In this document: positions 3,671 through 28,665 of the stretch, piece by piece
Layout of the letters: each line of letters begins with the position of its first letter
Position numbering within the stretch: position 1 is the first letter of the stretch
Source: Eubacteriales bacterium
Lineage (GTDB): Bacteria > Bacillota > Clostridia > Oscillospirales > CAG-272
Assembly (NCBI GenBank): GCA_045122995.1
Contig: JBGVIG010000448.1
Location: forward strand, 1 to 32,582
Length of the DNA stretch: 32,582 bases
Reading direction: 5' to 3'
Made by a program: the position numbers and the translations under genes
The notes under the pieces: model-generated
Told to the model about the DNA's origin: nothing
The model's input: only the letters and a program-made list of their open reading frames with translations
The model's database searches: none

Positions 3671-3764
3671 TCCCTTTCATTGGGATCCCCAAGGGATAAG
3701 TCCCTTGGGCAGGTGCAGGGCAGAGCCTTGCAAAAACAAAAAGAGCGGAAAACCGCTCTTTTCT
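3671..3764 (+). repeat. GC-hairpin intergenic repeat, copy A, fused to the ktrA bidirectional terminator
   Basis: CATTGGGATCCCC, then hairpin CCCAAGGGA-TAAG-TCCCTTGGG (3688-3709), hairpin GCAGGG-CAGAG-CCTTGC (3715-3731), A-tract, and terminator AGAGCGG-AAAA-CCGCTCT (3742-3759). Homologous copies occur at 10925-10994, 11104-11170, 18560-18660 and 28565-28665. Confidence 0.8.
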
Positions 3765-4493
3765 TTATTTTTCTTTTTTCTTTGCTTTTTGAGCAGCACG
3801 CTCCGCGGCTTCCTGTTCTTCCCGAAGCTCTGCTTTTTCCTTTTCGTAAGTATTGGTAATATGAAAAACATCTTCCGCTTTACCGAGAATAAAAATGTGA
3901 TCGCCATTTCCAAAACGATAATCCGCACCGGGAAGAGGACGCATCTCGCCACCAGTTTTGACGGAGATAATGTTGACACGATAGTTATTACGAATATTCA
4001 GTTCCGAGATCGTTTTTCCCTCCCATGCCATCAGCGCAGGAACCTCATAAATAGAATACTCTTTCGTTAGCTCAATATAGTCAAACACGTTGTTTGCATT
4101 ATAACGAATCGCCAAATTTTCCGCCATTTCTTTTTCGGGATAAATGACCTCGTCTGCGCCGATCTTCAACAAAAGATTCGCTTGAATATCACGTTTTGCT
4201 TTTGCCACGACGTATTTTGCATTCAATTCCTTAAGCAGCGCCGTAATAACAAGCGAAGATTGAAAATCCGCACCGATACAAACAAAACAAATGTCAAAAT
4301 GATGCACACCAAGTGAACGCAAGACACTTTCATTGGTGCAATCTGCAATCTGTGAATCTGTAAATGACATCGAATAGCGTTCAATGATGCTGACATCTTT
4401 ATCAACGATCATAACGTCGTTGCCCAAATCAAGCATCTTTTTTGCAAGATGTCTGCCAAATCTTCCAAGACCGATTACAAGTATGGATTTCAT
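3765..4493 (-). CDS. ktrA: K+ uptake system NAD-binding subunit (KtrA/TrkA, RCK domains)
   Basis: 242 aa. N-terminal Rossmann motif VIGLGRFGRHLAKKM followed by a TrkA-C region. It lies immediately downstream of the TrkH/KtrB gene. It carries an extra ~30-aa E/K/A-rich C-terminal tail. Confidence 0.85.
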   Translation of the reverse strand: MKSILVIGLGRFGRHLAKKMLDLGNDVMIVDKDVSIIERYSMSFTDSQIADCTNESVLRSLGVHHFDICFVCIGADFQSSLVITALLKELNAKYVVAKAKRDIQANLLLKIGADEVIYPEKEMAENLAIRYNANNVFDYIELTKEYSIYEVPALMAWEGKTISELNIRNNYRVNIISVKTGGEMRPLPGADYRFGNGDHIFILGKAEDVFHITNTYEKEKAELREEQEAAERAAQKAKKKEK

Positions 4494-4531
4494 ATCTATA
4501 TACCCTCTTTAAATATCTCTTTCTCAAAAAA

Positions 4532-5917
4532 TTAACCGACAAGAACCTTTTCTCTGGGGCGCCTGATATCAGGTACGACGCTTTCTGTAGAAAATGCAAG
4601 CGCAAACGTCAATCCTCCAACACGACCCACAAACATTAGAAGCATTAAAATAACGCGGGAAAAACCCGACAACGAAGGCGTAAGTCCCATGGTGATACCA
4701 ACCGTGCCGATCGCAGAGCTGACTTCAAAAAGAACGTACTCCAGATCCACAGGTTCCACCGCTACGATCACTGTCGACACAACGATCGTAAGGAGCATAT
4801 AGATACCCGTAATCGCCGCCGCTTGCTTAACCGTTTCATCGTCAATGCGCTTTTTGAAGATCTCGATGCCTTCTCGATTGCGAATACTTGCCGCAACATT
4901 GAGCATAACGATCAAGATCGTAGTGGTTTTCATACCGCCCGCCGTGGAACCGGGGCTGCCGCCGATCAGCATTAAAATCACGGAAAGCATACTGCCACCA
5001 TCGGAAAGCGCCGCTTGGTCAACGGTATTGAACCCTGCCGTGCGCGTCGTCACCGATTGAAAAAACGATGCCAAAATCTGTTCACCGAGCGAAAAATCCT
5101 TCATGGAATCATTTCTTTCCAAAATGAAAAAACCAAGTGCGCCGGCAAGGATCAAAAATACTGTCATCACCAAAACGATCTTTGTGTGCAAAGTATATTT
5201 TTTGAAGCGAAGCTTGCATTTTAAGATATCTGACCAGACAAAAAAACCGACGCCGCCAATCACGATAAGCATCATGATCACAATCTGCACCATGGGATCG
5301 TCACGGAAAGTTGTCAAAGAGGAATACTGACCATATTTCCCCATAAGGTCAAAGCCTGCATTACAAAAAGCGGAAACGGAATGAAAGACCGCATTATAAA
5401 GACCTTCCCAAAAACCCATGCGTGGAATAAAACGAACGGCAAGAAAAATAGCGCCTGCCCCCTCAAAAATGGCCGTGCCGAGCAGGATCTTTTGAATCAA
5501 AGACATAACGCCATCGAGCTGATAGTTCCCCGAAGACTGCATCAGAAGCTTTCTTTGGTGGAGCGTGATGCGACGATGCGTGACAATGGCGAAAAGTGTC
5601 ATAATGATCATAAAGCCCAGACCGCCGATCTGAATCAAAAGGAGAATGATAAATTGCCCGAATAGACTCCAGTGCGTATAAGTATCCACCACAACAAGAC
5701 CCGTAATACAAGTTGCACTCGTCGCCGTAAAAAGTGCATCAAAAGGGTGTGTCCATTCCCGTGTCACAGAAGAAATCGGCAAGCACAAAATAAGTGCACC
5801 CACAATAATCACGCCGAGAAAACTCAGCACGATAAGCTGTGTATAGCCCAGTTTTCGTTTCTTTATCTTCAAGACCTTTCCCCCCCATACGACCGTTCGA
5901 TTTGCATTTTTTGCCAT
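4532..5917 (-). CDS. ktrB: K+ transporter membrane subunit (TrkH/KtrB family)
   Basis: 461-aa polytopic membrane protein with repeated pore-loop motifs (TAGFN, GGSPGSTAGG) typical of TrkH/KtrB. The start is uncertain: ATG at 5917 or an internal TTG about 15 codons in. Confidence 0.85.
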   Translation of the reverse strand: MAKNANRTVVWGGKVLKIKKRKLGYTQLIVLSFLGVIIVGALILCLPISSVTREWTHPFDALFTATSATCITGLVVVDTYTHWSLFGQFIILLLIQIGGLGFMIIMTLFAIVTHRRITLHQRKLLMQSSGNYQLDGVMSLIQKILLGTAIFEGAGAIFLAVRFIPRMGFWEGLYNAVFHSVSAFCNAGFDLMGKYGQYSSLTTFRDDPMVQIVIMMLIVIGGVGFFVWSDILKCKLRFKKYTLHTKIVLVMTVFLILAGALGFFILERNDSMKDFSLGEQILASFFQSVTTRTAGFNTVDQAALSDGGSMLSVILMLIGGSPGSTAGGMKTTTILIVMLNVAASIRNREGIEIFKKRIDDETVKQAAAITGIYMLLTIVVSTVIVAVEPVDLEYVLFEVSSAIGTVGITMGLTPSLSGFSRVILMLLMFVGRVGGLTFALAFSTESVVPDIRRPREKVLVG

Positions 5918-5925
5918 TCTCCTTT

Positions 5926-5954
5926 ATTATATCACCAATACGCCCACTTGTCAA
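5926..5954 (-). promoter_or_regulatory. sigma-A promoter for ktrBA
   Basis: On the minus strand: TTGACA (5954-5949), 17 nt, TATAAT (5931-5926). The -10 ends only 8 nt before the ATG at 5917. Confidence 0.55.
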
Positions 5955-5965
5955 GGAGTGGAAGA

Positions 5966-5994
5966 TTGACAACCACCCTTGATTCGGGTATAAT
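5966..5994 (+). promoter_or_regulatory. sigma-A promoter for the small Cys-protein gene
   Basis: TTGACA (5966-5971), 17 nt, TATAAT (5989-5994). It sits back-to-back with the ktrB promoter. Confidence 0.55.
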
Positions 5995-6039
5995 AATAAA
6001 CAAGATTCCGCGAGGATTTTTCAAAAAGGAGATATCTTG

Positions 6040-6237
6040 ATGAACAAGACTGCTAAAAAAAGAGTTTCCAACTGTGAAACGTGTATGTATTACGATTACG
6101 ACGTAGATTACGATGCCTATATCTGCACGGCAAACCTCGACGAAGACGACCTGGAGCGCTTTGTGAAAGGTGCGAACAGCTATTGTCCCTACTATCGCTT
6201 CTACGATGAATACAAGAGCGTGCAGAAGCAGAATTGA
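6040..6237 (+). CDS. Small (65 aa) acidic, Cys/Tyr-rich hypothetical protein
   Basis: RBS AAAGGAG lies 8 nt before the ATG at 6040 (the ORF track starts at TTG 6037). Contains CxxC and a later CPYY motif. No family name assigned with certainty. Confidence 0.6.
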   Translation: MNKTAKKRVSNCETCMYYDYDVDYDAYICTANLDEDDLERFVKGANSYCPYYRFYDEYKSVQKQN

Positions 6238-6248
6238 TCGACAGCGCC

Positions 6249-6277
6249 TTGACAAACAGAGGATTTTGTGATATACT
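6249..6277 (+). promoter_or_regulatory. Near-consensus extended -10 promoter
   Basis: TTGACA (6249-6254), 17 nt, TGA-TATACT (-10 at 6272-6277). Confidence 0.65.
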
Positions 6278-6313
6278 GTATTATAGATTTTGTTAAAGGA
6301 AGGTGAACTTGAA

Positions 6314-6379
6314 ATGGACGACAGTGGCGATAGTACAGATAATACTTGCTTTTGTCTTGCATTTCATTTGATTTCATAA
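6314..6379 (+). CDS. Candidate 21-aa sORF/leader peptide MDDSGDSTDNTCFCLAFHLIS
   Basis: RBS AAAGGAAGGTG about 8 nt upstream. It sits between the strong promoter (6249-6277) and the strong terminator (6387-6435). Coding status is unproven. Confidence 0.35.
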   Translation: MDDSGDSTDNTCFCLAFHLIS

Positions 6380-6386
6380 AACATTT

Positions 6387-6435
6387 CGACCGTAAGTCTA
6401 TGGTTTTTCCATAGGCTCGGTCGTTTTTTCGTTTT
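6387..6435 (+). terminator. Rho-independent terminator/attenuator upstream of the CNNM gene
   Basis: Long hairpin: CGACCG (6387-6392) pairs with CGGTCG (6418-6423), with an inner stem AGTCTATGG/CCATAGGCT. TTTTTTCGTTTTT follows. Confidence 0.75.
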
Positions 6436-6488
6436 TATATAAAAATCAAATGAACAAAACATTATTTTAAGAAAGAAAGGTTATTATC

Positions 6489-7790
6489 ATGTTTGGTGCA
6501 ATTCTTTTGCAAGTTATTCTCATTTTCTTAAACGCGATCTTCGCAAGTGCGGAAATCGCTGTCATCTCCACAAACGAAGCAAAACTCGAAAAGCTTTCCG
6601 AGGAAGGAAACAAAAAAGCACGCACTCTCCTCAAATTAAAAGGAAACTCTTCGAAATTTCTCTCCACCATTCAGGTTGCCATCACCCTTGCAGGTTTTCT
6701 CGGCAGTGCGTATGCCGCAGATAACTTTGCCACCCCTCTTGTGGGACTTCTCCTTGCGCTTGGCGTAAAACTCCCCGTGGAAGCGCTCACCTCCATTTGC
6801 GTATTTGCCATTACGCTCATTCTCTCGTATTTCAGCATCGTTTTCGGTGAACTTGTTCCCAAAAAGATCGCCATGAAGCATTCCGAAAAAATGGCTCTGA
6901 TGCTTGCAGGACTTTTGCTTTTTGTTTCCCGTGCATTCGCTCCCTTTGTCTGGATCCTCACCAAGTCTACGAACGCCACGCTTCGTCTTTTCCGCATCAA
7001 CCCTGATGACGAGGAAGAAGAAGTAACCGAAGAAGATATTCGTATGATGCTCGATTCCGGCAGTGAACAAGGCACCATTGACAGCATGGAAAATGAAATG
7101 ATCAAAAACATTTTTGAATTTGACGATATTTCTGTCGGTGAAGCTTGCACACACCGCCGTGATGTGCTGTTTCTTCATAAAGAAGACGGTATCGAAGAAT
7201 GGAAAAAAGCGATCAGTGAAACTCGTCACAAATATTATCCCATTTGCGATGAAAATGCAGACAACATCATCGCCGTCCTGGACGCAGGAAAATTCTTCCG
7301 TGAATCATTTGCTAACGCAGAATGTGCCATCTGCGAAGCTTCTGACAAGCCCTATTTCGTCCCTGAAGCAATGAAAGCTGACGTGCTTTTCAGCAATATG
7401 AAAAAAACACGCAATCACTTTGCCGTTGTTATCGACGAATACGGCGGTACCAGCGGTGTCATCACCATGCATGACTTATTGGAGCTTCTCGTAGGCGACA
7501 TCAGCGCCAAAGATGATACCGTAAGCATCACAGAAATCGAAAAGCTCAATGACACACAGTATCGTGTCGCAGGAACTGCCTCTCTTGACGCCGTTTGCGA
7601 TAAGCTGGGCATTCACATCGAATCCGAAGACGTCGACACTTTCGGCGGTTACGTCATCTCTCTTCTCGGCTTCATTCCTGAGGACGGAACCACACACGAG
7701 CTGGAAACCGAGGAGCTTCACATTCAAGTGGAACCCGTGGACGATCACCGTGTTGTATTCACAAAAGTCACGATTAAGGAAAAAGAGTAA
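6489..7790 (+). CDS. CNNM/CorC/TlyC-family transporter (DUF21 + CBS pair + CorC_HlyC)
   Basis: 433 aa. The N-terminal DUF21 signature LNAIFASAEIAVIS is followed by a central CBS region and a C-terminal transporter-associated domain. Confidence 0.85.
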   Translation: MFGAILLQVILIFLNAIFASAEIAVISTNEAKLEKLSEEGNKKARTLLKLKGNSSKFLSTIQVAITLAGFLGSAYAADNFATPLVGLLLALGVKLPVEALTSICVFAITLILSYFSIVFGELVPKKIAMKHSEKMALMLAGLLLFVSRAFAPFVWILTKSTNATLRLFRINPDDEEEEVTEEDIRMMLDSGSEQGTIDSMENEMIKNIFEFDDISVGEACTHRRDVLFLHKEDGIEEWKKAISETRHKYYPICDENADNIIAVLDAGKFFRESFANAECAICEASDKPYFVPEAMKADVLFSNMKKTRNHFAVVIDEYGGTSGVITMHDLLELLVGDISAKDDTVSITEIEKLNDTQYRVAGTASLDAVCDKLGIHIESEDVDTFGGYVISLLGFIPEDGTTHELETEELHIQVEPVDDHRVVFTKVTIKEKE

Positions 7791-7806
7791 TTTCTAACGA
7801 TACATA

Positions 7807-7845
7807 ACAAAAAACGCAGGCAATGCCTGCGTTTTTCTTTTTTTA
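7807..7845. terminator. Bidirectional terminator shared by the CNNM gene (+) and the ABC/FtsX gene (-)
   Basis: A-run, then CGCAGGC (7815-7821), AAT, GCCTGCG (7825-7831), then a T-run. Confidence 0.8.
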
Positions 7846-10818
7846 ATCTGTTCTGAGTGCCACAACGGGATCTTTCTTCGCTGCCATGCGGGAAGGAACA
7901 AGACCTGCGATGAGCGTCAATATGATGCTGAGTGCCACAAGGATCACAGCACCGCCAACGGGAAGGATCGCATTGAGGATACCAATGCCCGTAACTGCGT
8001 GCAAGATCGGGTTCGCGATCAAAATCAGCAGCAAGGTAATGCCAATACCAAGCGCGCCTGAAATAAAGCCGACGATCGCGGTTTCCGCATTGAATACACG
8101 GGAAACGTCCTTCTTCGAAGCACCAATCGCACGAAGGATACCGATCTCTTTCGTTCTTTCCAAAACGGAGATATAGGTGATGATACCGATCATGATCGAC
8201 GACACCACGAGAGATACGCCGACAAAGGCGATCAACACGTAAGAGATCGCGTTGATGACTGTAGTAATCGAACTCATAAGGATCTTCACGTAGTCCGTGT
8301 AAGAGATCTTGTCGGTTTCGTCCACGCCATCGTTGTAAGCGGTGATCAAAGCCGCGATCTCGTCTTTATCTTCAAAGCTTTCCGCATAAATGTTGATAGC
8401 GGAAGGAGATTCCGCATCTACATAACCAAGAAGCTTCAGATTCTTTTCATAAGTGGAATCCGAAACAGTTTTCGGCATATAGGTTTCATGAAGCACAGCA
8501 AGCTCTGCTTCGGTGTAAACCACAAGAGAAGCATCAAACGCCATGGCAAGTTGGTCTGCCGTCATCGCACCGAGCGCTGTCTGCACCTCAAGTGCATAAT
8601 TTGCCACGATCTGCTGTTTTGCCGCATTCGCCACCGCACCAAAAAGCTCTTCATCGCTCATGCCTGCGATATAGCCCTTGATCTGTGTCGTGTCGGTAAT
8701 GCCCATTTCTGCGGCATACATCTGAATGACCATTTCCTCAAGCGCTTCTCTGGTGTACTGCGCAACGTACTGCTGCGCTGCCTTTTCCAACTCATCTTCG
8801 GGCATGACAGAGCTGATCTCTGTATAGATCGCTGCCTTTTCCGCGGTGGTGAGTCTTGAAAAATAGGAAAGAATTTCTTCCGCTTTCTCAGCGTCCGTCA
8901 ATTCTTCCTCGTTTTCACTCTTGAATTTAAGTCCTGAGAGAATATCCATCGTGGGATTTTCCATCTGCTCTTTCACGATCGCGCTCTGTGCCGCATGTTC
9001 GATGGCGTATTCTGTGAGCGCGGAAGTATAGCCGATGGAGCCCGTCATCATGGAAGCAACAGCGTCCTTATCGGGACGGATAATACCCGAAACCGTCAGC
9101 TCCAAGCCTTTTTCAGAATCGTAAAGGAATTTCATGCCAGCATCTGTCGCGGAAAGATTGGTGTAGGTGCCGTCAGCATTTTTCTGATAGAGATCGGAAG
9201 CTAGGAAAAGCTTGAAGGTCATATCACAAATTTCTTCATAAGACCAGCTTTCCGTTTTTCCTTCTTCGGTTTTGCCTTCCATGGATTCTTTCATAGAGGT
9301 CTGCATTTCTTCCGTAGTCTTCAAACCAAGAACGTAAAGCGCCACATCGGAAAGCTCATTATTTTCATCGACAACAAGTACGATCTCATTATATTTTTCC
9401 GGCATATGACCGTAAAGTACGTCATATTGATCCGCAAAAAGATCACTCACAAGCGCACCATCTTCTCCGGGAAGCATTTCTTCCCAAATGTCATATGCGG
9501 CAAAGCTGCTTGCGTTTGCTTCCATCATCTGAGCGGAAGATGCCGCGTCGCCGCCCGCCATCAGCTCCTGCATCAGCGCCGTCAAGTCGCTTTTTACGAT
9601 ATCGCCGTTTTTATCTTGAGTATAAAGATGAAAATCCATATCGTAAGTATAGCGGATCGCGCTGACGAATTCATCAAATTCGGGCGTATTTTCCAAATAT
9701 TTTTTGAAAGCGGTAAGATTATTTTTCTGCACCGTGGTGTTGGAAAGGGAGCTCATCAGCTCATACATGATACGATTCGCATAGACCGCGTCAAGCTCAT
9801 GCTTTTGCTCGGTGGCAGAGGTGTTCGCGCTCATCATCGTGGTGATCAGTCCTGACATATCCACCGTTTCCGCTTGAAGCATGATGGGATAACTGGATAG
9901 CGTATCTTCCTGCACACGGTTGATATACGCGGTAACACCATTGGAGATGGAAAGGATCAGCGCAATACCGATAATACCGATCGAACCCGCAAAGCTTGTC
10001 AAAAATGTTCTGCCCTTTTTGGTGCGCAGATTGTTCAGTGAAAGCGCAAGTGCCGTGCCAAAGGACATCGTGCGGTTTTTAAGGCGTTTTTCTTTCTTTT
10101 TCTTGAGAGATTCTGTTTTCGGTTCTTCCTCTTTAGGTGCAACATAAGGATCTGTGTCACCGATGATCTTACCGTCCAGAATACGAATGATACGGGTAGA
10201 ATATTTCTCCGCAAGCTCAGGGTTATGAGTAACCATGATGACAAGGCGATCTTTCGCGACCTCCTTGAGCATTTCCATGATCTGTACGCTGGTTTCCGAG
10301 TCAAGCGCACCGGTCGGTTCATCGGCAAGCAAGATTTCAGGATTGTTGACAAGCGCACGCGCAATGGCAACCCTCTGCATCTGACCGCCCGACATCTGAT
10401 TCGGACGTTTATAGATTTCGCTTGCAAGTCCCACCTTTTCCAAAGCATCTTTGGCGCGGCGGCGACGTTCTGCCTTTGAAATACCGGAGATCGTCAGCGC
10501 CAGCTCCACATTGGCAAGAACACTCTGGTGAGGAATGAGATTATAGCTTTGAAAAACAAAGCCAATGGAATGATTTCTGTATGCGTCCCAATCTGAATCA
10601 CGGAAATCTTTTGTGGATTTTCCGCTGATAACAAGATCGCCGCTGGTATATTGGTCAAGACCACCGATGATATTGAGGAGCGTTGTCTTACCGCAACCGG
10701 AAGGTCCAAGAATGGAAACAAATTCACTTTTGCGAAACTCCACCGAAAGTCCGCGAAGTGCTGCCACCTTGTTATCGCCTGCGGCATATTCTTTATGAAT
10801 ATCTTTTAATACAAGCAT
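7843..10818 (-). CDS. Fused ABC ATPase / FtsX-type permease (MacB-like) with a very large extracytoplasmic domain
   Basis: N-terminal Walker A GPSGCGKTT, signature LSGGQ-like SGGQMQRVAIARAL, and Walker B LLADEP. One TM follows near aa ~280, then ~560 aa of soluble sequence, then the FtsX 3-TM module with ERTKEIGILRAIGA. The ATG at 10818 has an AAAGGGA RBS; the ORF opens at 10839. Confidence 0.85.
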   Translation of the reverse strand: MLVLKDIHKEYAAGDNKVAALRGLSVEFRKSEFVSILGPSGCGKTTLLNIIGGLDQYTSGDLVISGKSTKDFRDSDWDAYRNHSIGFVFQSYNLIPHQSVLANVELALTISGISKAERRRRAKDALEKVGLASEIYKRPNQMSGGQMQRVAIARALVNNPEILLADEPTGALDSETSVQIMEMLKEVAKDRLVIMVTHNPELAEKYSTRIIRILDGKIIGDTDPYVAPKEEEPKTESLKKKKEKRLKNRTMSFGTALALSLNNLRTKKGRTFLTSFAGSIGIIGIALILSISNGVTAYINRVQEDTLSSYPIMLQAETVDMSGLITTMMSANTSATEQKHELDAVYANRIMYELMSSLSNTTVQKNNLTAFKKYLENTPEFDEFVSAIRYTYDMDFHLYTQDKNGDIVKSDLTALMQELMAGGDAASSAQMMEANASSFAAYDIWEEMLPGEDGALVSDLFADQYDVLYGHMPEKYNEIVLVVDENNELSDVALYVLGLKTTEEMQTSMKESMEGKTEEGKTESWSYEEICDMTFKLFLASDLYQKNADGTYTNLSATDAGMKFLYDSEKGLELTVSGIIRPDKDAVASMMTGSIGYTSALTEYAIEHAAQSAIVKEQMENPTMDILSGLKFKSENEEELTDAEKAEEILSYFSRLTTAEKAAIYTEISSVMPEDELEKAAQQYVAQYTREALEEMVIQMYAAEMGITDTTQIKGYIAGMSDEELFGAVANAAKQQIVANYALEVQTALGAMTADQLAMAFDASLVVYTEAELAVLHETYMPKTVSDSTYEKNLKLLGYVDAESPSAINIYAESFEDKDEIAALITAYNDGVDETDKISYTDYVKILMSSITTVINAISYVLIAFVGVSLVVSSIMIGIITYISVLERTKEIGILRAIGASKKDVSRVFNAETAIVGFISGALGIGITLLLILIANPILHAVTGIGILNAILPVGGAVILVALSIILTLIAGLVPSRMAAKKDPVVALRTD

Positions 10819-10924
10819 GGGGATCCCTTTCTTTCTCATACTATCTTTTTAATAATATAGTATTATACACCCCATTTATGAATAGCGTATGAACATATGG
10901 TGATAATTATAAATATTTTCCTCA

Positions 10925-10994
10925 CAGCGCTCTGCTTTTTGCAGGGTTCTACCCTGCACCCGCATAAGGGGTATTACCCCTTATGAATCCCAAT
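10925..10994 (-). repeat. GC-hairpin intergenic repeat, copy B1 (minus orientation)
   Basis: The minus strand reads ATTGGGATTCATAAGGGGTAATACCCCTTATGCGGGTGCAGGGTAGAACCCTGC. Hairpins lie at 10963-10985 and 10941-10957. Confidence 0.75.
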
Positions 10995-11103
10995 ATCTTC
11001 TGCCCCACAATAGGTTCCAAGGGGACCTTGGTACAAACATATCTATGTCCTTTTTCCAATTTGGATATATTTTTCGATAAGTGCGTGACACGCTTCGCGT
11101 GTG

Positions 11104-11170
11104 GACCACCTTGGCAGAGCGCGAGGCAGCGCCTCGCAAGAAAAAAAGGTGCGAAAACGCACCTTTTTCT
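11104..11170 (+). repeat. GC-hairpin repeat, truncated copy B2, fused to the ftsH bidirectional terminator
   Basis: CCTTGGCAGAGC, then GCGAGGC-AGC-GCCTCGC (11121-11137), A-tract, then GGTGCG-AAAA-CGCACC (11148-11163) and a T-run. Nearly identical to 18598-18660. Confidence 0.75.
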
Positions 11171-11171
11171 T

Positions 11172-13238
11172 TTATTTTTTAGGGGGGAAGAAATGATCGT
11201 CGTAGCCGTAGCCTTGCTTTTCGCCTTCAGCTTTGGATTTTGCTTCCGCTTCGCGGCGGCGTGCTTCTTCTTCGTCACGCTTGCGTGCTTCTGCTTCTGC
11301 GGCTTCACGAAGTTTATTTTCTTCTGCGGAACGGCGGCGTTTTTCCTCACCGATGGCAACGATGTCTTCAAGAGTTGCCTCGTCGTTTTCCATCGCAGCC
11401 TTAAACTGCTCATCGTCCATAATTTCGTTTTCCACAAGGAAATCTGCAAGGAAATCGAGCTTCGCTCTCTTTTCCATGAGAATTTCTTTTGCTTTTGCAT
11501 AAGCTTCATCAATGATGATCTTCACTTCTTCATCAATGAGAGAAGCCGTCTGTTCGGAATATACCTTGGAAGCATTGAAATCTCTGCCAAGGAATACTTC
11601 ACCCTCACCATGCTCACTACCGAGGTGGATCGTACCCACACGATCGCTCATACCAAGCTCGGTGACCATGCGGCGTGCGATCGAGGTCGCGCGCTGAATA
11701 TCATTGGAAGCACCGCCGGAAACATCGCCATAGATGATCTCTTCTGCAGCTCTACCGCCGAGGAGCATCGCGATATTTTCCTTCAGCTCATTTTTGTAAA
11801 CGCTGTATTTATCTTCCACGGGGGGATTAAGCGTATAACCAAGCGCTCTGCCGCTGGGGATCACGGAGATCTGACGAACAGGATCCTGTGTGGGCAAGCA
11901 ATATGCGAGGATCGCATGACCTGCTTCGTGATATGCGGTCTTGCGCTTTTCTTCGGGTTTGATCTTGTGATTGCGCTTCTGTGTGCCGACAGTGATCTTA
12001 ATGAGAGATTCTTCAATGTCGATCATACCGATAAGTGCTTTATTCTTTCTTGCTGCAAGAAGTGCCGCTTCGTTGAGAAGGTTCGCAAGATCTGCGCCGG
12101 TGAAACCAACGGTCGTCTGTGCGATCTTCTTAAGATCCACTTCTTTTTCAAAGGGTTTCCCTTTTGCGTGAACGTGAAGAATATCTTCTCTACCCTTGAT
12201 ATCGGGATAACCAACCGTGATCTGTCTGTCAAAACGTCCGGGACGGAGAAGCGCGGGGTCAAGGATATCGGGGCGGTTGGTCGCCGCGATGACGATAACG
12301 CCGTCATGGCCGCCAAAGCCGTCCATCTCTACGAGAAGCTGGTTGAGCGTCTGCTCACGTTCATCGTGGCCGCCGCCAAGACCTGTGCCGCGGCGTCTGC
12401 CCACAGCGTCGATTTCGTCGATAAAGATGATGCTTGCAGGTGCTTTTTTTGCGGTTTCAAAAAGGTCACGCACACGGGAAGCACCGACACCGACGTACAT
12501 TTCCACGAAGTCGGAACCCGAGATCGAGAAGAAAGGAACGTCAGCTTCTCCTGCCGTTGCTTTGGCAAGGAGTGTTTTACCCGTTCCGGGAGGGCCTACG
12601 AGAAGCACGCCCCGCGGAATTTTTGCGCCAAGACGCTGGAATTTCGCAGGATCACGCAAGTATTCCACGACCTCACGAAGCTCTTCTTTTTCCTCGTCTG
12701 CACCGGCAACGTCTGTAAAGAACACACGTGTCTTATCTTTTTGCGGTGTTTTCACACGCGCTTTGCTGAAAGCATTCATTTTGCGTTCGCCGTCAGAGAA
12801 TTTATTCGCCATATAGAACCAAGCGAAAATACCGATGGCAAGCATGATGAGATAAGGAAGGAAGCTGAGGATCCACGGTGTTTCCTTGGGTGCTTCCATA
12901 TCGCAGTTTTCAATGATGAGTGTGCGCTCGCTTTCAGGGAGCGCAAGCTGTGCATCGATATATTCATCTACGTCTGCTTTGAACAAGTATACGTCGCGCA
13001 ATTTTTTGCTGTATTCTTTTTGTCTGCCGTTTTCGTCAAGTTCCGTTGTCTTAAACGTCAAAATATTGTCGGCGCCGATCTGATATTCGGTCACCATATT
13101 GTCACGGAACATTTCAACCACTTCGCCGTATGTCGGTTGACCAAGCGCCGATGCGCCGCCAAGCAGTGTAAAGCAAACAAGCATAAAGCCTGCCAGCAAT
13201 GCGACATAGAGAAGTATCGTCTTTTTATTGCCTTTCAT
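11172..13238 (-). CDS. ftsH: ATP-dependent zinc metalloprotease FtsH
   Basis: AAA+ Walker [12 protein letters not shown] region, zinc motif HEAGH, and N-terminal TM segments. The ATG at 13238 lies 10 nt after GGAGGA; the ORF track opens at TTG 13256. Long E/A/R/K-rich C-terminal tail. Confidence 0.95.
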
Positions 13239-13284
13239 GTCTGAAAAATCCTCCAAAGGGGTGTTTTATTGGATATATGCTATT

Positions 13285-13293
13285 ATTATAGCA
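13285..13293 (-). promoter_or_regulatory. Extended -10 element upstream of ftsH
   Basis: The minus strand reads TGCTATAAT. The -35 is poor. Confidence 0.35.
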
Positions 13294-18290: not shown

Positions 18291-18297
18291 CAGTTTT

Positions 18298-18508
18298 CCC
18301 GCTTTTTCTTTGCGAAAAGAAAAAGCTTGGCAAAAAGAAACGATTCGTGCTCTCTCGATCTTTCAGAACAAGTCCCAAGACTCCGTTCTTCTCATAAAAA
18401 ATCAACAATAGCACCGCGCGCTCCTTTACGAAAAGAAAAAGCTTGGCAAAAAGAAACCTCCACCTTTTCTTTACGAAAAGAAAAGCGTAAAACCAAAAGA
18501 AACGATTC
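18298..18508 (+). repeat. Purine-rich direct repeats and polypyrimidine/polypurine hairpins (family 2)
   Basis: An exact 29-mer, CGAAAAGAAAAAGCTTGGCAAAAAGAAAC, occurs at 18313-18341 and 18429-18457, with a degenerate third copy at 18474-18503. Hairpins: GCTTTTTCTTT-GCGA-AAAGAAAAAGC (18301-18326) and CTTTTCTTT-ACGA-AAAGAAAAG (18464-18485). Confidence 0.8.
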
Positions 18509-18559: not shown

Positions 18560-18660
18560 TTCCCCCTCTATCCATTGGGATCCCCCAGAGATAAGTCCCT
18601 TGGGCGGAGCGCGAGGCGGCGCCTCGCAAACAAAAAAAGCACCCGAAGGTGCTTTTTTCT
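18560..18660 (+). repeat. GC-hairpin intergenic repeat, copy C, fused to the GH95 bidirectional terminator
   Basis: CATTGGGATCCCCCAGAGATAAGTCCCTTGGGC, then GCGAGGC-GGC-GCCTCGC (18611-18627), A-tract, GCACC-CGAA-GGTGC (18639-18652), and a T-run. Confidence 0.8.
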
Positions 18661-20987: not shown

Positions 20988-21037
20988 ACTGTTCACCTTT
21001 TTCTAAAAAATGCATCTGCAAACACTTGTCCTTGATC

Positions 21038-22150: not shown

Positions 22151-22171
22151 AAAAACCTCCGATGTGGAATT

Positions 22172-24479: not shown

Positions 24480-24526
24480 ACGATTCATTCCTTTCAAAAG
24501 GGAAAGCCCTTTAACATAGTAATCAA

Positions 24527-24555
24527 ATTATAGCATGAATGGGATAAAATGTAAA
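24527..24555 (-). promoter_or_regulatory. Promoter for the ABC exporter genes
   Basis: On the minus strand: TTTACA (24555-24550), 17 nt, TGC-TATAAT (-10 at 24532-24527). Confidence 0.55.
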
Positions 24556-24568
24556 GATATTTCCTCCT

Positions 24569-24994: not shown

Positions 24995-24996
24995 AT

Positions 24997-25434: not shown

Positions 25435-25467
25435 ATTGCACCTCTTTTCAGCTCTTTTTCTGTGTTT

Positions 25468-25496
25468 AGGATAGCATTTTTCATACCACTTGTCAA
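25468..25496 (-). promoter_or_regulatory. Promoter for the LytTR operon
   Basis: On the minus strand: TTGACA (25496-25491), 17 nt, TGC-TATCCT (-10 at 25473-25468). Confidence 0.45.
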
Positions 25497-25546
25497 CGCA
25501 AGGCAAAGCGTCCTGCGTTTTTGATGCCGTGAGATACAAATGCGTC

Positions 25547-25575
25547 TTGACTTTGCCTTTACTTTATATTATAAT
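25547..25575 (+). promoter_or_regulatory. Promoter for the glucokinase gene
   Basis: TTGACT (25547-25552), 17 nt, TATAAT (25570-25575). Confidence 0.55.
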
Positions 25576-25684
25576 GAAAATGGACGAATATCGTCCGTCG
25601 GCAAAATCTTGTACTTATAATTATATGTAAATAAAACCGAAAAATCGGCTTGCGTTTTTCAAAAAACGCGGAAAGGAACTACTT

Positions 25685-26659
25685 ATGAAATTCATCATCG
25701 GCGTGGATCTCGGCGGTACAAACATCGCCATCGGCATTTTGGACGAAAACTTCAATATTATCAAAAAAGGCTCCGTTCCCACTTTGGCACAGAGAGGCCC
25801 TGAACCTATCGTTCATGACATGGCGGAACTTTCCAAAAAACTCATTGCGGAATGCGGTCTTGTTATGGAAGATCTTCTCGGCGCAGGTATCGCTTGTCCC
25901 GGCACTGTAAACCCCGATACCGGTATTGTTGAATATGCAAACAATATTAAATTTGATAACTTCCCGCTCGTGGAACTCTATTCCAAAGAAATGAATATCG
26001 CACCCGAAATGGTGAAGATCGGTAACGACGCAAACCTTGCGGCGCTCGGCGAAGCTGTTGCCGGTGCAGCAAAGGGCGCAAAATCTTCCGTTATGATCAC
26101 CCTCGGCACAGGCGTTGGCGGCGGCGTTATCCTCAACGGCACCGTTCTTACCGGTTGTGCATACGGCGGTGCGGAACTTGGCCACATGGTTATTGAAAAA
26201 GACGGCAGACCTTGCTCCTGCGGTAGAAACGGTTGTCTTGAAGCATACTGCGCAGCAACTGCGCTTGTAAAACTCACCAAAGAAAAATTCGCCGAATGCC
26301 CTGATTCGCTCATGGTGGAAATGTGCGAAGGCGATATCAACCGCGTTGGCGGCAAAACTGCTTTCGCTGCGATGAAAAAAGGCGACAAAGCAGGTGCTGA
26401 AGTTGTTGACACTTTCATTTCTTACCTTGCAATCGGTGTTGCAAACCTCATCAATATCTTCCAGCCCGAAGTATTCACCATCGGCGGCGGTGTTTCCGGT
26501 GAAGGCGACAACCTCATCATTCCGCTCAAGGAAAAGGTTTGCAAAGAAGTATATTCCAAAGATAACACCCTCAAGACTGACCTCCGCGTTGCAACACTCG
26601 GCAACGATGCAGGTATCATCGGTGCAGGTGCATTTGCACTCAACAGCAAGATTATTTAA
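25685..26659 (+). CDS. glcK: ROK-family glucokinase
   Basis: N-terminal GVDLGGTNIAIG, ROK signature, and zinc motif CSCGRNGCLEAYC. Confidence 0.85.
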   Translation: MKFIIGVDLGGTNIAIGILDENFNIIKKGSVPTLAQRGPEPIVHDMAELSKKLIAECGLVMEDLLGAGIACPGTVNPDTGIVEYANNIKFDNFPLVELYSKEMNIAPEMVKIGNDANLAALGEAVAGAAKGAKSSVMITLGTGVGGGVILNGTVLTGCAYGGAELGHMVIEKDGRPCSCGRNGCLEAYCAATALVKLTKEKFAECPDSLMVEMCEGDINRVGGKTAFAAMKKGDKAGAEVVDTFISYLAIGVANLINIFQPEVFTIGGGVSGEGDNLIIPLKEKVCKEVYSKDNTLKTDLRVATLGNDAGIIGAGAFALNSKII

Positions 26660-26866
26660 TTTTTCTGTTTTTTATAAAAAATAGTGTCCTTTTCTCTTTT
26701 TGAAAGAGAAAAGAACGAAAAGAGAAGCAAAAAACGTATCGACGTTTTATCTCTCTTTCGTACTACTGAAAGTGGCTCGATCGCCTGCAAGAGATGGCTC
26801 GCGCGAACAAGATTCGCGCGCCCTCCTCACTGGCGGTTCCGGGACGCCCCTCTTGTCTACGGCGGT

Positions 26867-27026
26867 TCGGGAACTGTACTATCAAATTTTAGCAAAACAT
26901 ATAGTGAAGAACTCCACGAACGGTTTCTTTTGCCGAGCTTCTTTTATCGGGAACTACACTATTAAATTTTAGCAAAACATACAGCGAAGAACTCCACGAG
27001 CGGTTTCTTTTGCCAATCTTTTCTTT
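26867..27026 (+). repeat. 80-bp tandem duplication
   Basis: Unit TCGGGAACT..ACTAT.AAATTTTAGCAAAACATA.AG.GAAGAACTCCACGA.CGGTTTCTTTTGCC starts at 26867 and again at 26947. I count about 6 mismatches over the first ~68 nt. Confidence 0.85.
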
Positions 27027-27085
27027 TCCCAAAGAAAAGCGGGAGTTCTTTTGCAAAGCTTTTCTTTTTCCAAAGAAAAGCGGAA
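27001..27085 (+). repeat. Family-2 modules (reverse-complement relatives of 18298-18346) with two Y/R hairpins
   Basis: CGGTTTCTTTTGCCAATCTTTTCTTTTCCCAAAGAAAAGCGGG (27001-27043) and GTTCTTTTGCAAAGCTTTTCTTTTTCCAAAGAAAAGCGGA (27045-27084). Hairpins at 27018-27039 and 27058-27081. Confidence 0.75.
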
Positions 27086-27095
27086 AGGAGAAAGA

Positions 27096-27968
27096 ATGGT
27101 CCGCACAAAGAAAACATGGCGCATCGGCGGCGCGGCGATTTTTGCCACAGGTATTACGCTCGCATCGCGTTTTGACCTTGCCATTTCGTCAGCACTTTCC
27201 GGACTGACGACAGATGGCGGCACCTTTAAGCTCTCCGTTCCGAAATTTGCTTCTCTTTTGGAGATCATCGGTGAATGGGCGCCGTCTATGCTCGCCGCCA
27301 CATCGTTGCTCATCGTTTCCCATCATCATGGAAATTCGGAAAAAGCACATGCAAAAGCGATGAAACGCGCTTCTGTGATCCCCGCGGCAGGACTCGTTGC
27401 TTATGCTTCGGCAAAAACTGCACAATATCTGAAGCTTCCCCTGAATAAGATCGGCGGCGTGATGCTCGCGGCACTTTCTTTTGTGATCGCGGCACTTATG
27501 TATCTCGCCGTGGGAAAGATTCCGCAAAAAGCAAGAGAACGCCTGCATTTTCCTGCGGCATATACGCTTGCCGCCTCCATCGGTGTGCTTTCCTCCGTAT
27601 CTGCCATTAAGAGCATTTGGGGACGCCCAAGACTACGTGAGCTTGTCGACCGTGGCTCCCTTGAGGATTTCACCCCGTGGTATATCCCGAAATTTTTCTC
27701 GGGTTCGTATTCTTTCCCGTCGGGACATACGGCGCACGCTACTCTCGTCATGATGCTCACCACATGGCTTTACGGCGTCGGTGAAAAATTCCGCGGCGCG
27801 GTTTCCGTTTTGTGTTATGGATTTATCGTTCTGATGGCGTTTTCCCGTCTTGCCGCAGGTGCGCATTATCTTTCTGACGTGCTTTTCGGCTTCATGATCG
27901 CCATTTCCATCGTAGAGGTGGCAAAAGCCAAGCTTGACAAGCGTTTACGCGAGTCCAAAATAACGTAA
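27096..27968 (+). CDS. PAP2-family membrane phosphatase
   Basis: PAP2 motifs PSGHTAHA and SRLAAGAHYLSD, with several TM segments. The ATG at 27096 lies after GGAAAGGAG; the ORF opens at 27051 inside the repeat region. Confidence 0.85.
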   Translation: MVRTKKTWRIGGAAIFATGITLASRFDLAISSALSGLTTDGGTFKLSVPKFASLLEIIGEWAPSMLAATSLLIVSHHHGNSEKAHAKAMKRASVIPAAGLVAYASAKTAQYLKLPLNKIGGVMLAALSFVIAALMYLAVGKIPQKARERLHFPAAYTLAASIGVLSSVSAIKSIWGRPRLRELVDRGSLEDFTPWYIPKFFSGSYSFPSGHTAHATLVMMLTTWLYGVGEKFRGAVSVLCYGFIVLMAFSRLAAGAHYLSDVLFGFMIAISIVEVAKAKLDKRLRESKIT

Positions 27969-28511
27969 AATACCATTATAAATGCCCTCAGCGATGAGAT
28001 TCGGATTTTCAGCCATCAGCCTTGCATCGGAAGGATTGGTGATGAATCCGATTTCAAGAAGCGTTGCGGGCATTTGTGTTTTTCGCAGAACGTAAAGCGT
28101 AGGACGCGCAAAAACACCACGGTTCTGAAGCCCCGTGGCTTCGGAAAGTCCGACCAGAATATTTTCCGCAAAAGCTTCCGCAGGCGAATCCAGCCGAAAA
28201 ACGAAAGCTTCGCTCCCCGAGGCACTCGTGATATCCGAAGCATTGGCGTGCAGACTGATGAAATAATCCGCGCCCCATTCGTTTGCGGTGTTCACACGCG
28301 CGGCAAGACTTTCCGCTGTGCTCGTGCCGAGAATCTCCGTTGGTGAATTTCTTGAGGTACGCGCATCAAAATTCGGATTGGCGTCCAGCCTTGCCTCCAG
28401 CGCTTTTCCGATGGTATACATGAGATCCTGCTCGCGATAACCATTCCCCTCCGCACCTGCATTGGGGTTCATCGGGTTGTGTCCTTGGTCGATAAAAATT
28501 TTAATTGCCAT
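27945..28511 (-). CDS. N-acetylmuramoyl-L-alanine amidase (Amidase_3 domain only)
   Basis: 188 aa with RBS GGAGG. IFIDQGHN…G…E, YFISLHANA and LLEIGFITN motifs. Confidence 0.85.
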   Translation of the reverse strand: MAIKIFIDQGHNPMNPNAGAEGNGYREQDLMYTIGKALEARLDANPNFDARTSRNSPTEILGTSTAESLAARVNTANEWGADYFISLHANASDITSASGSEAFVFRLDSPAEAFAENILVGLSEATGLQNRGVFARPTLYVLRKTQMPATLLEIGFITNPSDARLMAENPNLIAEGIYNGILRYFGLA

Positions 28512-28564
28512 AAAATATCCTCCGTATCAGAATAAAGGTCTGTTTTATTCTATGTACGAAGGAT

Positions 28565-28665
28565 TTTTTTGTGCGGACGTCGAGGCTCTGCCCTGCCCCC
28601 TGCAAGGGCGCCGCCCTTGACTCACCCAAGGGGCTCCCCCCTTGGGGATCCCGATGGAGAGAAGG
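28565..28665 (-). repeat. GC-hairpin intergenic repeat, copy E (minus orientation, composite)
   Basis: The minus strand reads CATCGGGATCCCCAAGGGGGGAGCCCCTTGGGTGAGTCAAGGGCGGCGCCCTTGCAGGGGGCAGGGCAGAGCCTCG. Hairpins at 28625-28646 and 28602-28618. Confidence 0.8.

What the first reader, a model, noticed from the sequence alone, without database searches (positions are those of the whole stretch)
3671..28665. Dispersed modular GC-hairpin repeat family: five copies in 32 kb with covarying stems
The same element recurs in five intergenic sites:
- A, 3678-3731 (+): CATTGGGATCCCCAAGGGATAAGTCCCTTGGGCAGGTGCAGGGCAGAGCCTTGC
- C, 18573-18627 (+): CATTGGGATCCCCCAGAGATAAGTCCCTTGGGCGGAGCGCGAGGCGGCGCCTCGC
- E, 28656-28581 (-): CATCGGGATCCCCAAGGGGGGAGCCCCTTGGGTGAGTCAAGGGCGGCGCCCTTGCAGGGGGCAGGGCAGAGCCTCG
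- B1, 10994-10941 (-): ATTGGGATTCATAAGGGGTAATACCCCTTATGCGGGTGCAGGGTAGAACCCTGC
- B2, 11109-11137 (+), truncated: CCTTGGCAGAGCGCGAGGCAGCGCCTCGC

The architecture is a pyrimidine-rich lead-in, CAT(T/C)GGGAT, then a 9-bp hairpin 1. One or both of two alternative GC hairpins follow: type I GCAGGG-N5-CC(C/T)TGC and type II GCGAGGC-NGC-GCCTCGC.

The stems differ between copies by paired changes that preserve complementarity:
- Hairpin 1 is CCCAAGGGA/TCCCTTGGG in A, CATAAGGGG/CCCCTTATG in B1, and CCCAAGGGG/CCCCTTGGG in E.
- Type II is GCGAGGC/GCCTCGC in C and B2 but CAAGGGC/GCCCTTG in E. That is four covarying pairs, with the GGC loop kept.

This pattern suggests selection on structure (RNA or cruciform/ssDNA) rather than simple decay. 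I recognise no ORF, RBS or named RNA family that explains it. It resembles REP/BIME-type or small structured-RNA families, but no such family is known to me for this sequence.
Basis: seen in the sequence. Interest (0 to 1): 0.72.

Follow-up and report, generated by a model that had tools for sequence, protein, structure and literature searches.

The report
New REPIN-like hairpin repeat family
The five repeats are real (there is also a sixth) and belong to a widespread, undescribed family of small two-hairpin DNA elements, often paired back to back, that behave like the mobile "REP/REPIN" repeats of proteobacteria but carry a different sequence tag and occur in gut Clostridia and unrelated bacteria.

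Summary
The sequences are at the stated coordinates. A covariance model built only from unrelated metagenome copies finds four window copies at 51-63 bits and a sixth, decayed copy at 3618-3565 (-).

Each module is about 60 nt. It has a single-stranded tag (C)ATYGGGAT(T/C)C, a 9-bp hairpin (HP1, AAGGG/CCCTT core) and a G-rich linker. One to three GC hairpins with a triloop follow (HP2).

At least 84 distinct copies occur in metagenome contigs of 38-67% GC. All nine unconstrained stem pairs covary (99.8% paired). G.T outnumbers A.C 34:3, so one strand is the functional one.

Copies often form head-to-head inverted doublets of 125-200 nt. A2/A and B1/B2 in the window are such doublets. One 172-nt doublet is 87% identical between unrelated flanks.

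Close relatives lack the element at orthologous sites or carry it elsewhere. Window copies range from intact to decayed or truncated. No Rfam family matches, and no flanking gene is shared.

Best reading: a new REPIN/BIME-like non-autonomous mobile element. It lacks the GTAG/CGTC tag of REPs, and a cognate transposase could not be sought here.

The parts
3676..3734 (+). Copy A, intact. Tag CATTGGGATC 3678-3687, HP1 3688-3709 (9 bp, loop TAAG), linker 3710-3713, HP2 3714-3732 (8 bp with one G.T, loop AGA).
   Evidence: R1 scores 62.9 bits, E = 1.1e-16. The ssDNA fold is as predicted, z = -4.3. Sequence.
3565..3618 (-). Copy A2, new and degenerate. It is the head-to-head partner of A and abuts the pfkB terminator.
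   Evidence: R1 scores 32.5 bits, E = 5.5e-8, with mispairs in both stems. Its fold is no better than shuffles.
3619..3675 (.). 57-nt spacer between the facing tags of A2 and A. Together they make a 170-nt doublet, 3565-3734.
   Evidence: Coordinates. The same head-to-head layout, with 8-60 nt spacers, is seen in L002, L007, L039, L044, L056, L058, L059, L023, L028 and L066.
10938..10997 (-). Copy B1, intact. It has the CATAAGGGG/CCCCTTATG variant of HP1 and an HP2 with loop AGA.
   Evidence: R1 scores 53.9 bits, E = 4.3e-14. The ssDNA fold has z = -6.1.
11109..11137 (+). Copy B2, truncated. Only the 3' arm of HP1 (CCTTGG), the linker and HP2 GCGAGGC-AGC-GCCTCGC remain. It lies head-to-head with B1, with a spacer of about 110 nt.
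   Evidence: About 75% identity with C over 64 nt (family D2). R1 gives only 10.7 bits.
18571..18630 (+). Copy C, a singlet. HP1 has decayed, with two mispairs. HP2 is intact.
   Evidence: R1 scores 51.2 bits, E = 2.5e-13, with mispairs marked. The orthologue in L001 has a perfect HP1.
28600..28658 (-). Copy E, a singlet. It has the tag, HP1 CCCAAGGGG/CCCCTTGGG and a first HP2, CAAGGGC-GGC-GCCCTTG.
   Evidence: R1 scores 57.0 bits, E = 5.5e-15. Sequence.
28580..28599 (-). Second, decayed HP2 module of copy E (GCAGGGCAGAGCCTCGA; compare the HP2 of A).
   Evidence: Pattern hit with 2 mismatches. Iterated HP2 modules also occur in L076, L015 and L027.
3537..3563 (+). Context, not part of the element: the intrinsic terminator of pfkB, directly abutted by the HP2 end of A2.
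3738..3763 (.). Context: the bidirectional terminator of trkA, about 6 nt from the HP2 of A. It belongs to the host gene, because it is conserved in L076 without a full element.
11143..11168 (.). Context: the bidirectional terminator of ftsH, 5 nt from the HP2 of B2.
18632..18658 (.). Context: the bidirectional terminator of the GH95 gene, 4 nt from the HP2 of C.
   Evidence: read from the sequence. The same terminator is present in L001.

Best explanation
The repeats are copies of a REPIN/BIME-like, non-autonomous mobile DNA element.

**Anatomy**
- The basic module is about 60 nt.
- It starts with a conserved, unpaired 5' tag, (C)ATYGGGAT(T/C)C.
- HP1 follows: 9 bp around an AAGGG/CCCTT core, with a 4-5 nt loop.
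- A G-rich linker follows.
- One to three GC-rich hairpins (HP2) follow, each with a 3-nt loop.
- Two modules placed head-to-head (tags inside, HP2 outside), sometimes around a perfect central palindrome, make a 125-200 nt doublet. The doublet appears to be the unit that moves.

**Proposed mechanism (inferred by analogy with IS200/IS605 and REPIN-RAYT systems)**
1. When the DNA is single-stranded, one specific strand folds into these hairpins.
2. A structure- and tag-specific enzyme encoded elsewhere in the genome recognises the tag plus the hairpins. It is most likely an HUH/Y1-type transposase.
3. The enzyme excises and reinserts the element in extragenic DNA, very often right beside intrinsic terminators.
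4. Only copies that keep the fold can be mobilised, so stems covary across the family. Individual inserted copies then decay.

**Shown here:** the family, its fold, the strand asymmetry, the doublet unit, differing occupancy of sites between close relatives, and the mix of intact and decayed copies.

**Inferred:** ssDNA as the active form, the nature of the enzyme, and active transposition.
For: 1. **Real, large family.** The metagenome pattern scan gave 67 loci. R1 then found 156 hits in 454 kb, of which about 84-89 are distinct full copies.
2. **Structure under selection.** 99.8% of cells are paired. All 9 pairs left free by the search pattern have double changes. 0 of 500 shuffles reach the observed value, and slid controls fall to 26-60% paired. 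HP2 was not part of the search pattern.
3. **One functional strand.** G.T 34 against A.C 3 in stems.
4. **REPIN/BIME organisation.**
   - Head-to-head doublets occur in at least 12 loci and twice in the window. Alternating arrays (<- -> <-) occur in L023 and L028.
   - The 172-nt doublet of L002 is 86.6% identical to that of L007, with unrelated flanks.
   - The central palindromes of these two differ, yet each stays perfectly self-complementary.
5. **Mobility-like distribution.**
   - There is no copy in 76.5 kb from relatives with 96% identical UvrB and 91-92% identical FtsH. That stretch includes the ftsH 3' flank.
   - The sister MAG shares site C but not site A.
   - L076 (TrkA 89% identical) has copies at other sites.
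6. **Decay.** A and B1 fold well (z = -4.3 and -6.1). A2, C and B2 are degenerate or truncated.
7. **No gene association.** The flanks share no gene family. Both orientations relative to neighbouring genes occur. This argues against a gene-specific cis-regulatory RNA.
8. **Not in Rfam 15**.
Against: - No transposase has been linked to the element.
  - E. coli RayT finds no relative among 4,382 ORFs of the window and all loci. This is a weak test: a single query, and such a gene would be present once per genome.
  - The rest of this genome is not available.
- The GTAG/CGTC tag that marks REPs is absent in 82 of 84 copies (PMC3733652).
- REP sequences are usually lineage-specific. Here the tag and the HP1 core are conserved from Clostridia to a contig whose chorismate synthase is closest to Margulisbacteria and Omnitrophota.
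- No empty/filled pair with clean boundaries was obtained, and no target-site duplication is visible.
- G.T tolerance and a position next to terminators fit an RNA role equally well.
Confidence: 0.55

Rival explanations
1. It is a structured RNA element. One version is a cis-acting 3'-end module beside terminators, giving mRNA stabilisation, termination or insulation against convergent transcription. The other is a small RNA that ends at the adjacent bidirectional terminator. In either case it would have multiplied by duplication.
For: - Both stems covary strongly.
- G.U-type wobbles are tolerated on one strand only, 34 against 3.
- Many copies lie within 50 nt of a gene's 3' end or directly next to an intrinsic terminator.
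- In L005, L012, L021, L047 and L051 the module sits between a stop codon and the terminator on the sense strand.
- There is weak resemblance to the Clostridiales-2 sRNA motif.
Against: - Beside terminators the module occurs in both sense and antisense orientation.
- In the window the terminator-adjacent copies are all antisense to the terminated gene, and no convincing promoter precedes them.
- No gene family is associated.
- Copies are absent from orthologous sites in close relatives.
- Copies decay without compensation (C against L001).
- Inverted doublets move as a unit between unrelated contexts.
Confidence: 0.2
2. It is a host-exploited DNA or structural motif. Examples would be a binding site for a nucleoid protein, gyrase or another conserved protein, as proposed for E. 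coli BIMEs, or a cruciform-forming insulator. It would be kept by selection for that role and spread by recombination.
For: - The tag and HP1 core are conserved across very different genomes.
- Copies are extragenic and lie at the ends of transcription units.
- Arrays alternate in orientation, as in BIMEs.
Against: - Copy number per genome varies greatly: 6 copies in 32.6 kb here. By the strict search pattern alone, three contigs of 0.70-1.23 Mb gave one hit each and one of 0.64 Mb gave two.
- Occupancy is not conserved between close relatives.
- Many copies are decayed.
- Strand asymmetry is not expected for a site read as duplex DNA.
Confidence: 0.12
3. It is a conventional MITE. The doublet would be the terminal inverted repeats of a deleted DDE-type insertion sequence, mobilised in trans by its transposase.
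For: - It is a doublet of 125-200 nt with inverted arms.
- It is a discrete unit found in unrelated flanks.
Against: - The outermost parts (HP2) are the least conserved in sequence, and the inner tag is the most conserved. This is the reverse of transposase-bound TIR tips.
- Each arm is itself two hairpins with covarying stems.
- No target-site duplication is visible.
- No transposase gene carrying these ends occurs in about 560 kb of loci.
- Singlets and direct tandem copies are common.
Confidence: 0.08
4. It is a chance resemblance, or the remnants of one decayed coding gene.
For: None beyond the short length of each copy.
Against: - 0 pattern hits in shuffles against 4 observed.
- CM E-values of 1e-13 to 1e-16 from a model trained on unrelated sequences.
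- Copies are extragenic, on both strands, with no shared ORF.
Confidence: 0.01

Closest known systems
REP / REPIN elements mobilised by RAYT (Y1 HUH) transposases (Pseudomonas, E. coli; PMC3116915, PMC3337134)
   Same: - Short extragenic palindromic modules with a conserved unpaired 5' tag followed by a hairpin.
- Predominantly inverted doublets separated by a spacer, and able to form a long hairpin.
- Compensatory changes in the stems.
- Singlets that look like decayed remnants.
- Copy number that differs sharply between close relatives.
   Different: - The tag is ATYGGGAT(T/C)C, not GTAG or CGTC.
- Each module has two different hairpins, and the second is iterated 1-3 times.
- The hosts include Clostridia and at least one non-Bacillota lineage.
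- The same tag and HP1 core are conserved across these hosts, whereas REPs are usually lineage-specific.
- No RAYT has been linked.
BIMEs (bacterial interspersed mosaic elements) of Enterobacteria
   Same: - A mosaic of palindromic units in alternating orientation with short linkers.
- Located after genes and between convergent genes.
- Modular make-up.
   Different: - The sequences are unrelated.
- The BIME motifs (Y/Z REPs and the L, S, l, r linkers) are not present.
- No binding of IHF, gyrase or Pol I has been shown here.
Ends of IS200/IS605-family elements and their non-autonomous derivatives (PATEs)
   Same: - Sub-terminal hairpins are recognised as ssDNA on one strand.
- A conserved short sequence lies 5' of the hairpin.
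- No terminal inverted-repeat tips or target duplications are needed.
   Different: - No tnpA or tnpB gene lies next to any copy.
- The left-end and right-end hairpins of those IS resemble each other, whereas HP1 and HP2 do not.
- Cleavage sites are unknown.
Rfam RF02937 Clostridiales-2 RNA
   Same: The consensus begins AU..GGG..U followed by an 8-bp GGGG/CCCC hairpin. It is the only Rfam family that repeatedly hits the element (L019, L040, L066).
   Different: - Scores are 16-19 bits against a gathering score of 58.6.
- The 3' half of that motif (AGGAGGGUGCUCAG...) is absent.
- The window copies give no hit.

Membership tests
REP/REPIN (RAYT-associated) | Short, repeated, extragenic imperfect palindromes | tested here: met
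   Six extragenic copies in 32.6 kb. About 84 distinct copies in the loci. Stems 99.8% paired.
REP/REPIN (RAYT-associated) | Inverted doublets with a spacer, able to form one long hairpin, acting as the replicative unit | tested here: met
   Head-to-head doublets in at least 12 loci and twice in the window. A 172-nt doublet is 86.6% identical in unrelated flanks.
REP/REPIN (RAYT-associated) | GTAG (or CGTC) tetranucleotide tag at one end (PMC3733652) | tested here: not met
   Absent from the 5' region of 82 of 84 copies and the 3' region of 79 of 84. The conserved tag is ATYGGGAT(T/C)C.
REP/REPIN (RAYT-associated) | A cognate RAYT (Y1 transposase) gene in the same genome, typically flanked by the repeats | not testable with these tools
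   Only this 32.6-kb contig of the MAG is available. phmmer with E. coli RayT against 4,382 ORFs of the window and all loci found nothing. That is not informative for a single-copy gene.
REP/REPIN (RAYT-associated) | Evidence of excision or transposition (empty against filled sites) | tested here: inconclusive
   Orthologous flanks in relatives lack the element. However, the flanks are rearranged, so exact boundaries could not be read.
BIME | Arrays of palindromic units in alternating orientation | tested here: met
   L023 1382-1629 and L028 1879-2123 run <- -> <-.
DDE-type MITE | Conserved terminal inverted-repeat tips and target-site duplication | tested here: not met
   The outer ends (HP2) vary in sequence. 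No direct repeat flanks 13 doublets.
Rfam Clostridiales-2 (RF02937) | Score at or above the gathering threshold of 58.6 bits | tested here: not met
   16.1-19.2 bits on three loci. No hit in the window at gathering score or among the E <= 10 matches in 3500-3800.
Any Rfam 15 family | Match at the gathering score | tested here: not met
   0 matches in the window and 0 in 144.5 kb of 20 loci.
Intrinsic terminator | GC hairpin directly followed by a U/T tract | tested here: not met
   HP1 and HP2 are not followed by T runs. Separate host terminators lie 4-6 nt away. The trkA terminator is conserved in L076 without a full element.

The most novel reading that the evidence does not exclude
The tag-plus-two-hairpin module is conserved from gut Clostridia to a Margulisbacteria/Omnitrophota-like lineage. 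It would be the recognition element of a so far unrecognised trans-acting system: either a mobilising enzyme unrelated to RAYTs, or a conserved RNA/ssDNA-binding host factor acting at the ends of transcription units. That would make it a new class of prokaryotic structured repeat, not merely another REP family.
Probability: 0.2. Interest if true: 0.8.

Novelty: new variant of a known kind. Interest (0 to 1): 0.55.

Why it matters
REP/REPIN systems are the best-studied persistent intragenomic replicators of bacteria. They are described mainly in Proteobacteria and a few other phyla, and are defined by GTAG/CGTC tags and RAYT transposases.

This family has the same population-level behaviour: doublets, covarying stems, decay of singlets, and lineage-specific expansion. 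It differs in its tag, in having two hairpins with an iterated second one, and in its hosts, which include uncultured gut Clostridia and at least one distant lineage. Three consequences follow.
- It would extend this kind of element to major gut anaerobes.
- It gives a covariance model for masking or annotating a recurrent cause of MAG fragmentation. This is only a hint: two sister contigs end soon after trkA, but no copy was found at those ends.
- It points to a mobilising enzyme, or a binding factor, still to be identified.

The copies also sit 4-6 nt from terminators of trkA, ftsH and a fucosidase-family (GH95) gene, and one more abuts the pfkB terminator, so they may affect 3'-end formation of these mRNAs.

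Tried and rejected
- **Rfam 15.** Gathering thresholds on the window and on 20 loci gave nothing. E-value mode gave only sub-threshold noise plus Clostridiales-2 at 16-19 bits.
- **tRNA/tmRNA scan.** None found.
- **Genome-contig scan with a strict pattern.** One hit only, the orthologue of site C in a sister MAG. The family is therefore rare among GTDB representatives at that stringency.
- **Viral contigs (pattern) and plasmids (blastn, 60-nt consensus).** No hit. There is no sign of phage or plasmid carriage.
- **Shared neighbouring protein.** All-against-all clustering of 2,113 flanking ORFs grouped only orthologous loci. ORFs lying between nearby copies are ordinary genes, by their sequences, which were not searched against Pfam.
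- **RayT homologue in the loci.** None found.
- **Small-peptide reading of the ATG in the reverse-complement tag.** The downstream ORFs are short and not conserved (read).
- **sRNA with its own promoter.** No convincing -35/-10 lies upstream of A or C.
- **Terminator as part of the element (family D2).** Rejected, because the trkA terminator is conserved in L076 without a full element.
- **G-quadruplex, or an alternative pairing of the linker.** The linker resembles the 5' arm of HP2 only weakly: 3.65 identities of 6 against 3.38 +/- 0.07 on permutation. Left open.
- **Gene-orientation statistics.** The greedy ORF calls are noisy in GC-rich loci and showed no clear bias.
- **Exact-protein look-ups of window genes.** The contig is not in the position index.
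- **Full-text searches.** A search for the motif strings found only primers, and a search on REPs in Clostridia and gut families found nothing relevant.

Full report
**1. Observation**

- A degenerate pattern for the tag plus hairpin 1 hits the window four times. It hits none of 100 dinucleotide shuffles.
- The window is an ordinary chromosomal stretch of a Clostridia MAG.
  - Pfam finds pfkB, trkA/trkH, CNNM, an ABC-FtsX fusion, ftsH, uvrA, uvrB and GH95.
  - The best-named relatives are an 'uncultured Lachnospiraceae' MAG and 'Ruminococcus sp.' proteins.
  - The window appears to be a complete 32,582-bp contig.
- It contains no tRNA and no Rfam family at gathering score.

**2. The family is much larger than the window**

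One scan of species-representative genomes with a strict pattern found a single hit. It is the orthologue of copy C in a sister MAG whose UvrB is 98% identical.

One scan of metagenome contigs used ATYGGGATYCNNAAGGGNNNNNNCCCTTNNG and returned 67 loci.
- Their GC content runs from 38% to 67%.
- In nearly all of them the unconstrained positions of hairpin 1 are complementary.
- In 42 of the 61 distinct copies of at least 60 nt, a second GC-rich hairpin of at least 6 bp with a 3- or 5-nt loop follows at a fixed distance, although the pattern asked for nothing there.

The consensus module has four parts:
1. an unpaired tag, (C)ATYGGGAT(T/C)C;
2. HP1, 9 bp around AAGGG/CCCTT, with a loop of 4-5 nt;
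3. a G-rich linker;
4. HP2, a 6-12 bp stem that usually ends in GGC, then a loop, then GCC.

The module can be iterated: two in copy E, L015 and L027, and three in L076.

**3. Structure and strand**

On 30 metagenome copies 99.8% of cells are paired.
- All nine pairs that the search pattern left free show changes on both sides.
- No shuffle out of 500 reaches the observed values.
- Sliding the partners drops pairing to 26-60%.

A covariance model (R1) was built from these 30 copies only. It recovers A, E, B1 and C in the window at 51-63 bits. It also reveals a sixth, degenerate copy, A2, at 3618-3565 on the minus strand (32.5 bits, E = 5.5e-8). B2 is a truncated copy that can be recognised only through its similarity to C.

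In 454 kb of loci R1 finds 156 hits, of which 84-89 are distinct full copies. Some carry compensated changes even in the AAGGG core.

In the stems G.T occurs 34 times and A.C 3 times.

**4. Organisation**

Copies very often stand head-to-head, with tags facing and HP2 outside, separated by 8-60 nt.
- In L002, L007, L044, L056 and L059 the spacer is a perfect 18-26 bp palindrome, so the whole 160-175 nt can fold into one long hairpin.
- L023 and L028 hold arrays of alternating orientation.
- The 172-nt doublet of L002 is 86.6% identical to that of L007 although their flanks are unrelated. Similar matches link L013, L044, L045, L056 and L059. The doublet is therefore a discrete, transferable unit.
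- In the window, A2/A is a 170-nt doublet that exactly fills the gap between the terminators of the convergent pfkB and trkA genes.
- B1/B2 is a 200-nt doublet, with one half truncated, between the ftsH terminator and the ABC-FtsX start.
- C and E are singlets.

**5. Distribution among close relatives**

| Relative | Similarity to the window | Finding |
|---|---|---|
| L069-L071 | UvrB 96% (L069), FtsH 91-92% | No copy; the stretch includes the ftsH 3' flank |
| L072-L073 | FtsH 83% | No copy (76.5 kb in all for L069-L073, filters off) |
| Sister MAG (L001, L075) | UvrB 98%, TrkA 92% | Shares site C; has no element after trkA |
| L076 | TrkA 89% | Keeps the trkA terminator, followed only by an HP2-like hairpin; carries full copies at two other sites |

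- The terminators therefore belong to the host genes, not to the element.
- At site C the sister genome has a perfect HP1, while the window copy has two uncompensated mispairs.
- Folded as ssDNA, A and B1 are far more stable than shuffles (z = -4.3 and -6.1). E is intermediate. A2, C and B2 are not distinguishable from shuffles.

This mix of intact, decayed and truncated copies, at sites that differ between close relatives, is what a mobile family leaves behind.

**6. What it is not**
- No Rfam family matches. The only one that repeatedly touches the element is Clostridiales-2, at 16-19 bits against a threshold of 58.6, and only in its first hairpin.
- The flanks share no gene family, and the ORFs between nearby copies are ordinary genes.
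- No copy was found in viral contigs or plasmids.
- Beside terminators the module occurs in sense orientation (L015, L026, L055, L068) and in antisense orientation (A, A2, B2, C, L001, L058). It also lies upstream of genes (B1, E).
- No convincing promoter precedes A or C. This argues against a gene-specific cis-regulator or a classical sRNA gene, although an RNA-level effect on 3' ends is not excluded.
- The outer ends are the least conserved part and no target duplication is seen. This argues against a DDE-type MITE.

**7. Comparison with the known**

The behaviour is that of REP/REPIN/BIME elements, as described in PMC3116915 (read):
- extragenic palindromes with an unpaired 5' tag;
- inverted doublets as the replicative unit;
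- compensatory changes in the hairpin;
- singlets as decayed remnants.

Membership cannot be claimed.
- The GTAG/CGTC tag that marks REPs (PMC3733652) is absent in 82 of 84 copies.
- A RAYT gene could not be sought in the genome. A single-sequence search of the held loci found none.

The family is also unusual in three ways:
- its two-hairpin, iterated architecture;
- its presence in Clostridia;
- the conservation of the tag and HP1 core in at least one very different host. The chorismate synthase of contig L023 is closest to Margulisbacteria and Omnitrophota proteins, at 63-68% identity. This is an inference from best hits, not a classification.

**8. Verdict**

The most likely explanation (about 0.55) is a new REPIN-like, non-autonomous mobile element. 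It would be recognised as folded single-stranded DNA by an unidentified trans-acting enzyme. Its hairpins may have side effects on neighbouring 3' ends.

The main rival is a structured RNA module (about 0.2). A host structural DNA motif (about 0.12) and a conventional MITE (about 0.08) are less likely.

It is a new variant of a known kind, of moderate interest. The decisive steps are a genome-wide census with R1 and a search for a co-occurring Y1 or other transposase.

Noticed in passing
window 18303-18341, 18419-18457, 18464-18501 (+); 27005-27042, 27046-27083 (inverse orientation); compare 26690-26712: A second, unrelated repeat family: an AT-rich hairpin, CTTTTCTTT-NNN-AAAGAAAAG, followed by GC(TTG)GCAAAAAGAAAC.
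- Three copies lie upstream of uvrB, against one in sister locus L001.
- Two tandem copies lie directly before the RBS of the gene that starts at 27097.
- Similar sequences lie next to the GC-hairpin element in loci L008, L010, L032, L036 and L052, and in L076.
   Followed up: partly
window 26867-26946 and 26947-27026: A tandem duplication of an 80-nt unit (86% identity) lies in the upstream region of the gene at 27097. It ends in the AT-rich hairpin repeats (family D5).
   Followed up: no
window 7843-11172, against L069 12067-15191, L071, L072, L075 and L076: The ABC-FtsX gene has opposite orientations relative to ftsH and trkH in different close relatives.
- It is convergent with ftsH in L069-L071.
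- It is co-directional with ftsH in the window and in L072.
- Relative to trkH it is inverted between L075 and L076.
- The B1/B2 inverted doublet sits at one junction of this rearrangement.
   Followed up: partly
L075 6729-6893; L076 10729-11034: The contigs of two related MAGs end 164 and 305 nt after trkA. This is the place where the window carries the A2/A doublet, which suggests that repeats break assemblies here. No copy of the element was found at either contig end.
   Followed up: no
window 3739-3762, 11143-11168, 18632-18658: The three bidirectional terminators next to A, B2 and C share one architecture: an A run, a 5-6 bp GC stem, a tetraloop and a T run. They lie at nearly the same distance (4-6 nt) from HP2 (family D2). 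In relatives the ftsH terminator has a quite different sequence.
   Followed up: partly
L045 2754-2874 and 4602-4721; L056 3395-3545 and 8356-8474: Another repeat of about 118 nt, 84-93% identical, is shared between two GC-rich contigs that also carry the doublets.
   Followed up: no
L023 and L028, flanks of the doublets (for example L028 around 1850 and 2040): The palindromic motif CCCTCCCCTTTAGGGGAGGG recurs directly outside the hairpin doublets in these two freshwater contigs. This may be a nested repeat or a preferred target.
   Followed up: no
L003, L014, L030, L038, L041, L054, and L053 and L035: In GC-rich contigs from one set of samples the tag-plus-HP1 module is embedded in a longer unit of about 130 nt. 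That unit is bounded by GAGACCGCTGCGCA...TGC(A/G)CAG(C/T)GGTCTC inverted repeats. HP2 is replaced by GGCCGCCGGAGGC.... This is a composite or chimeric subfamily.
   Followed up: no
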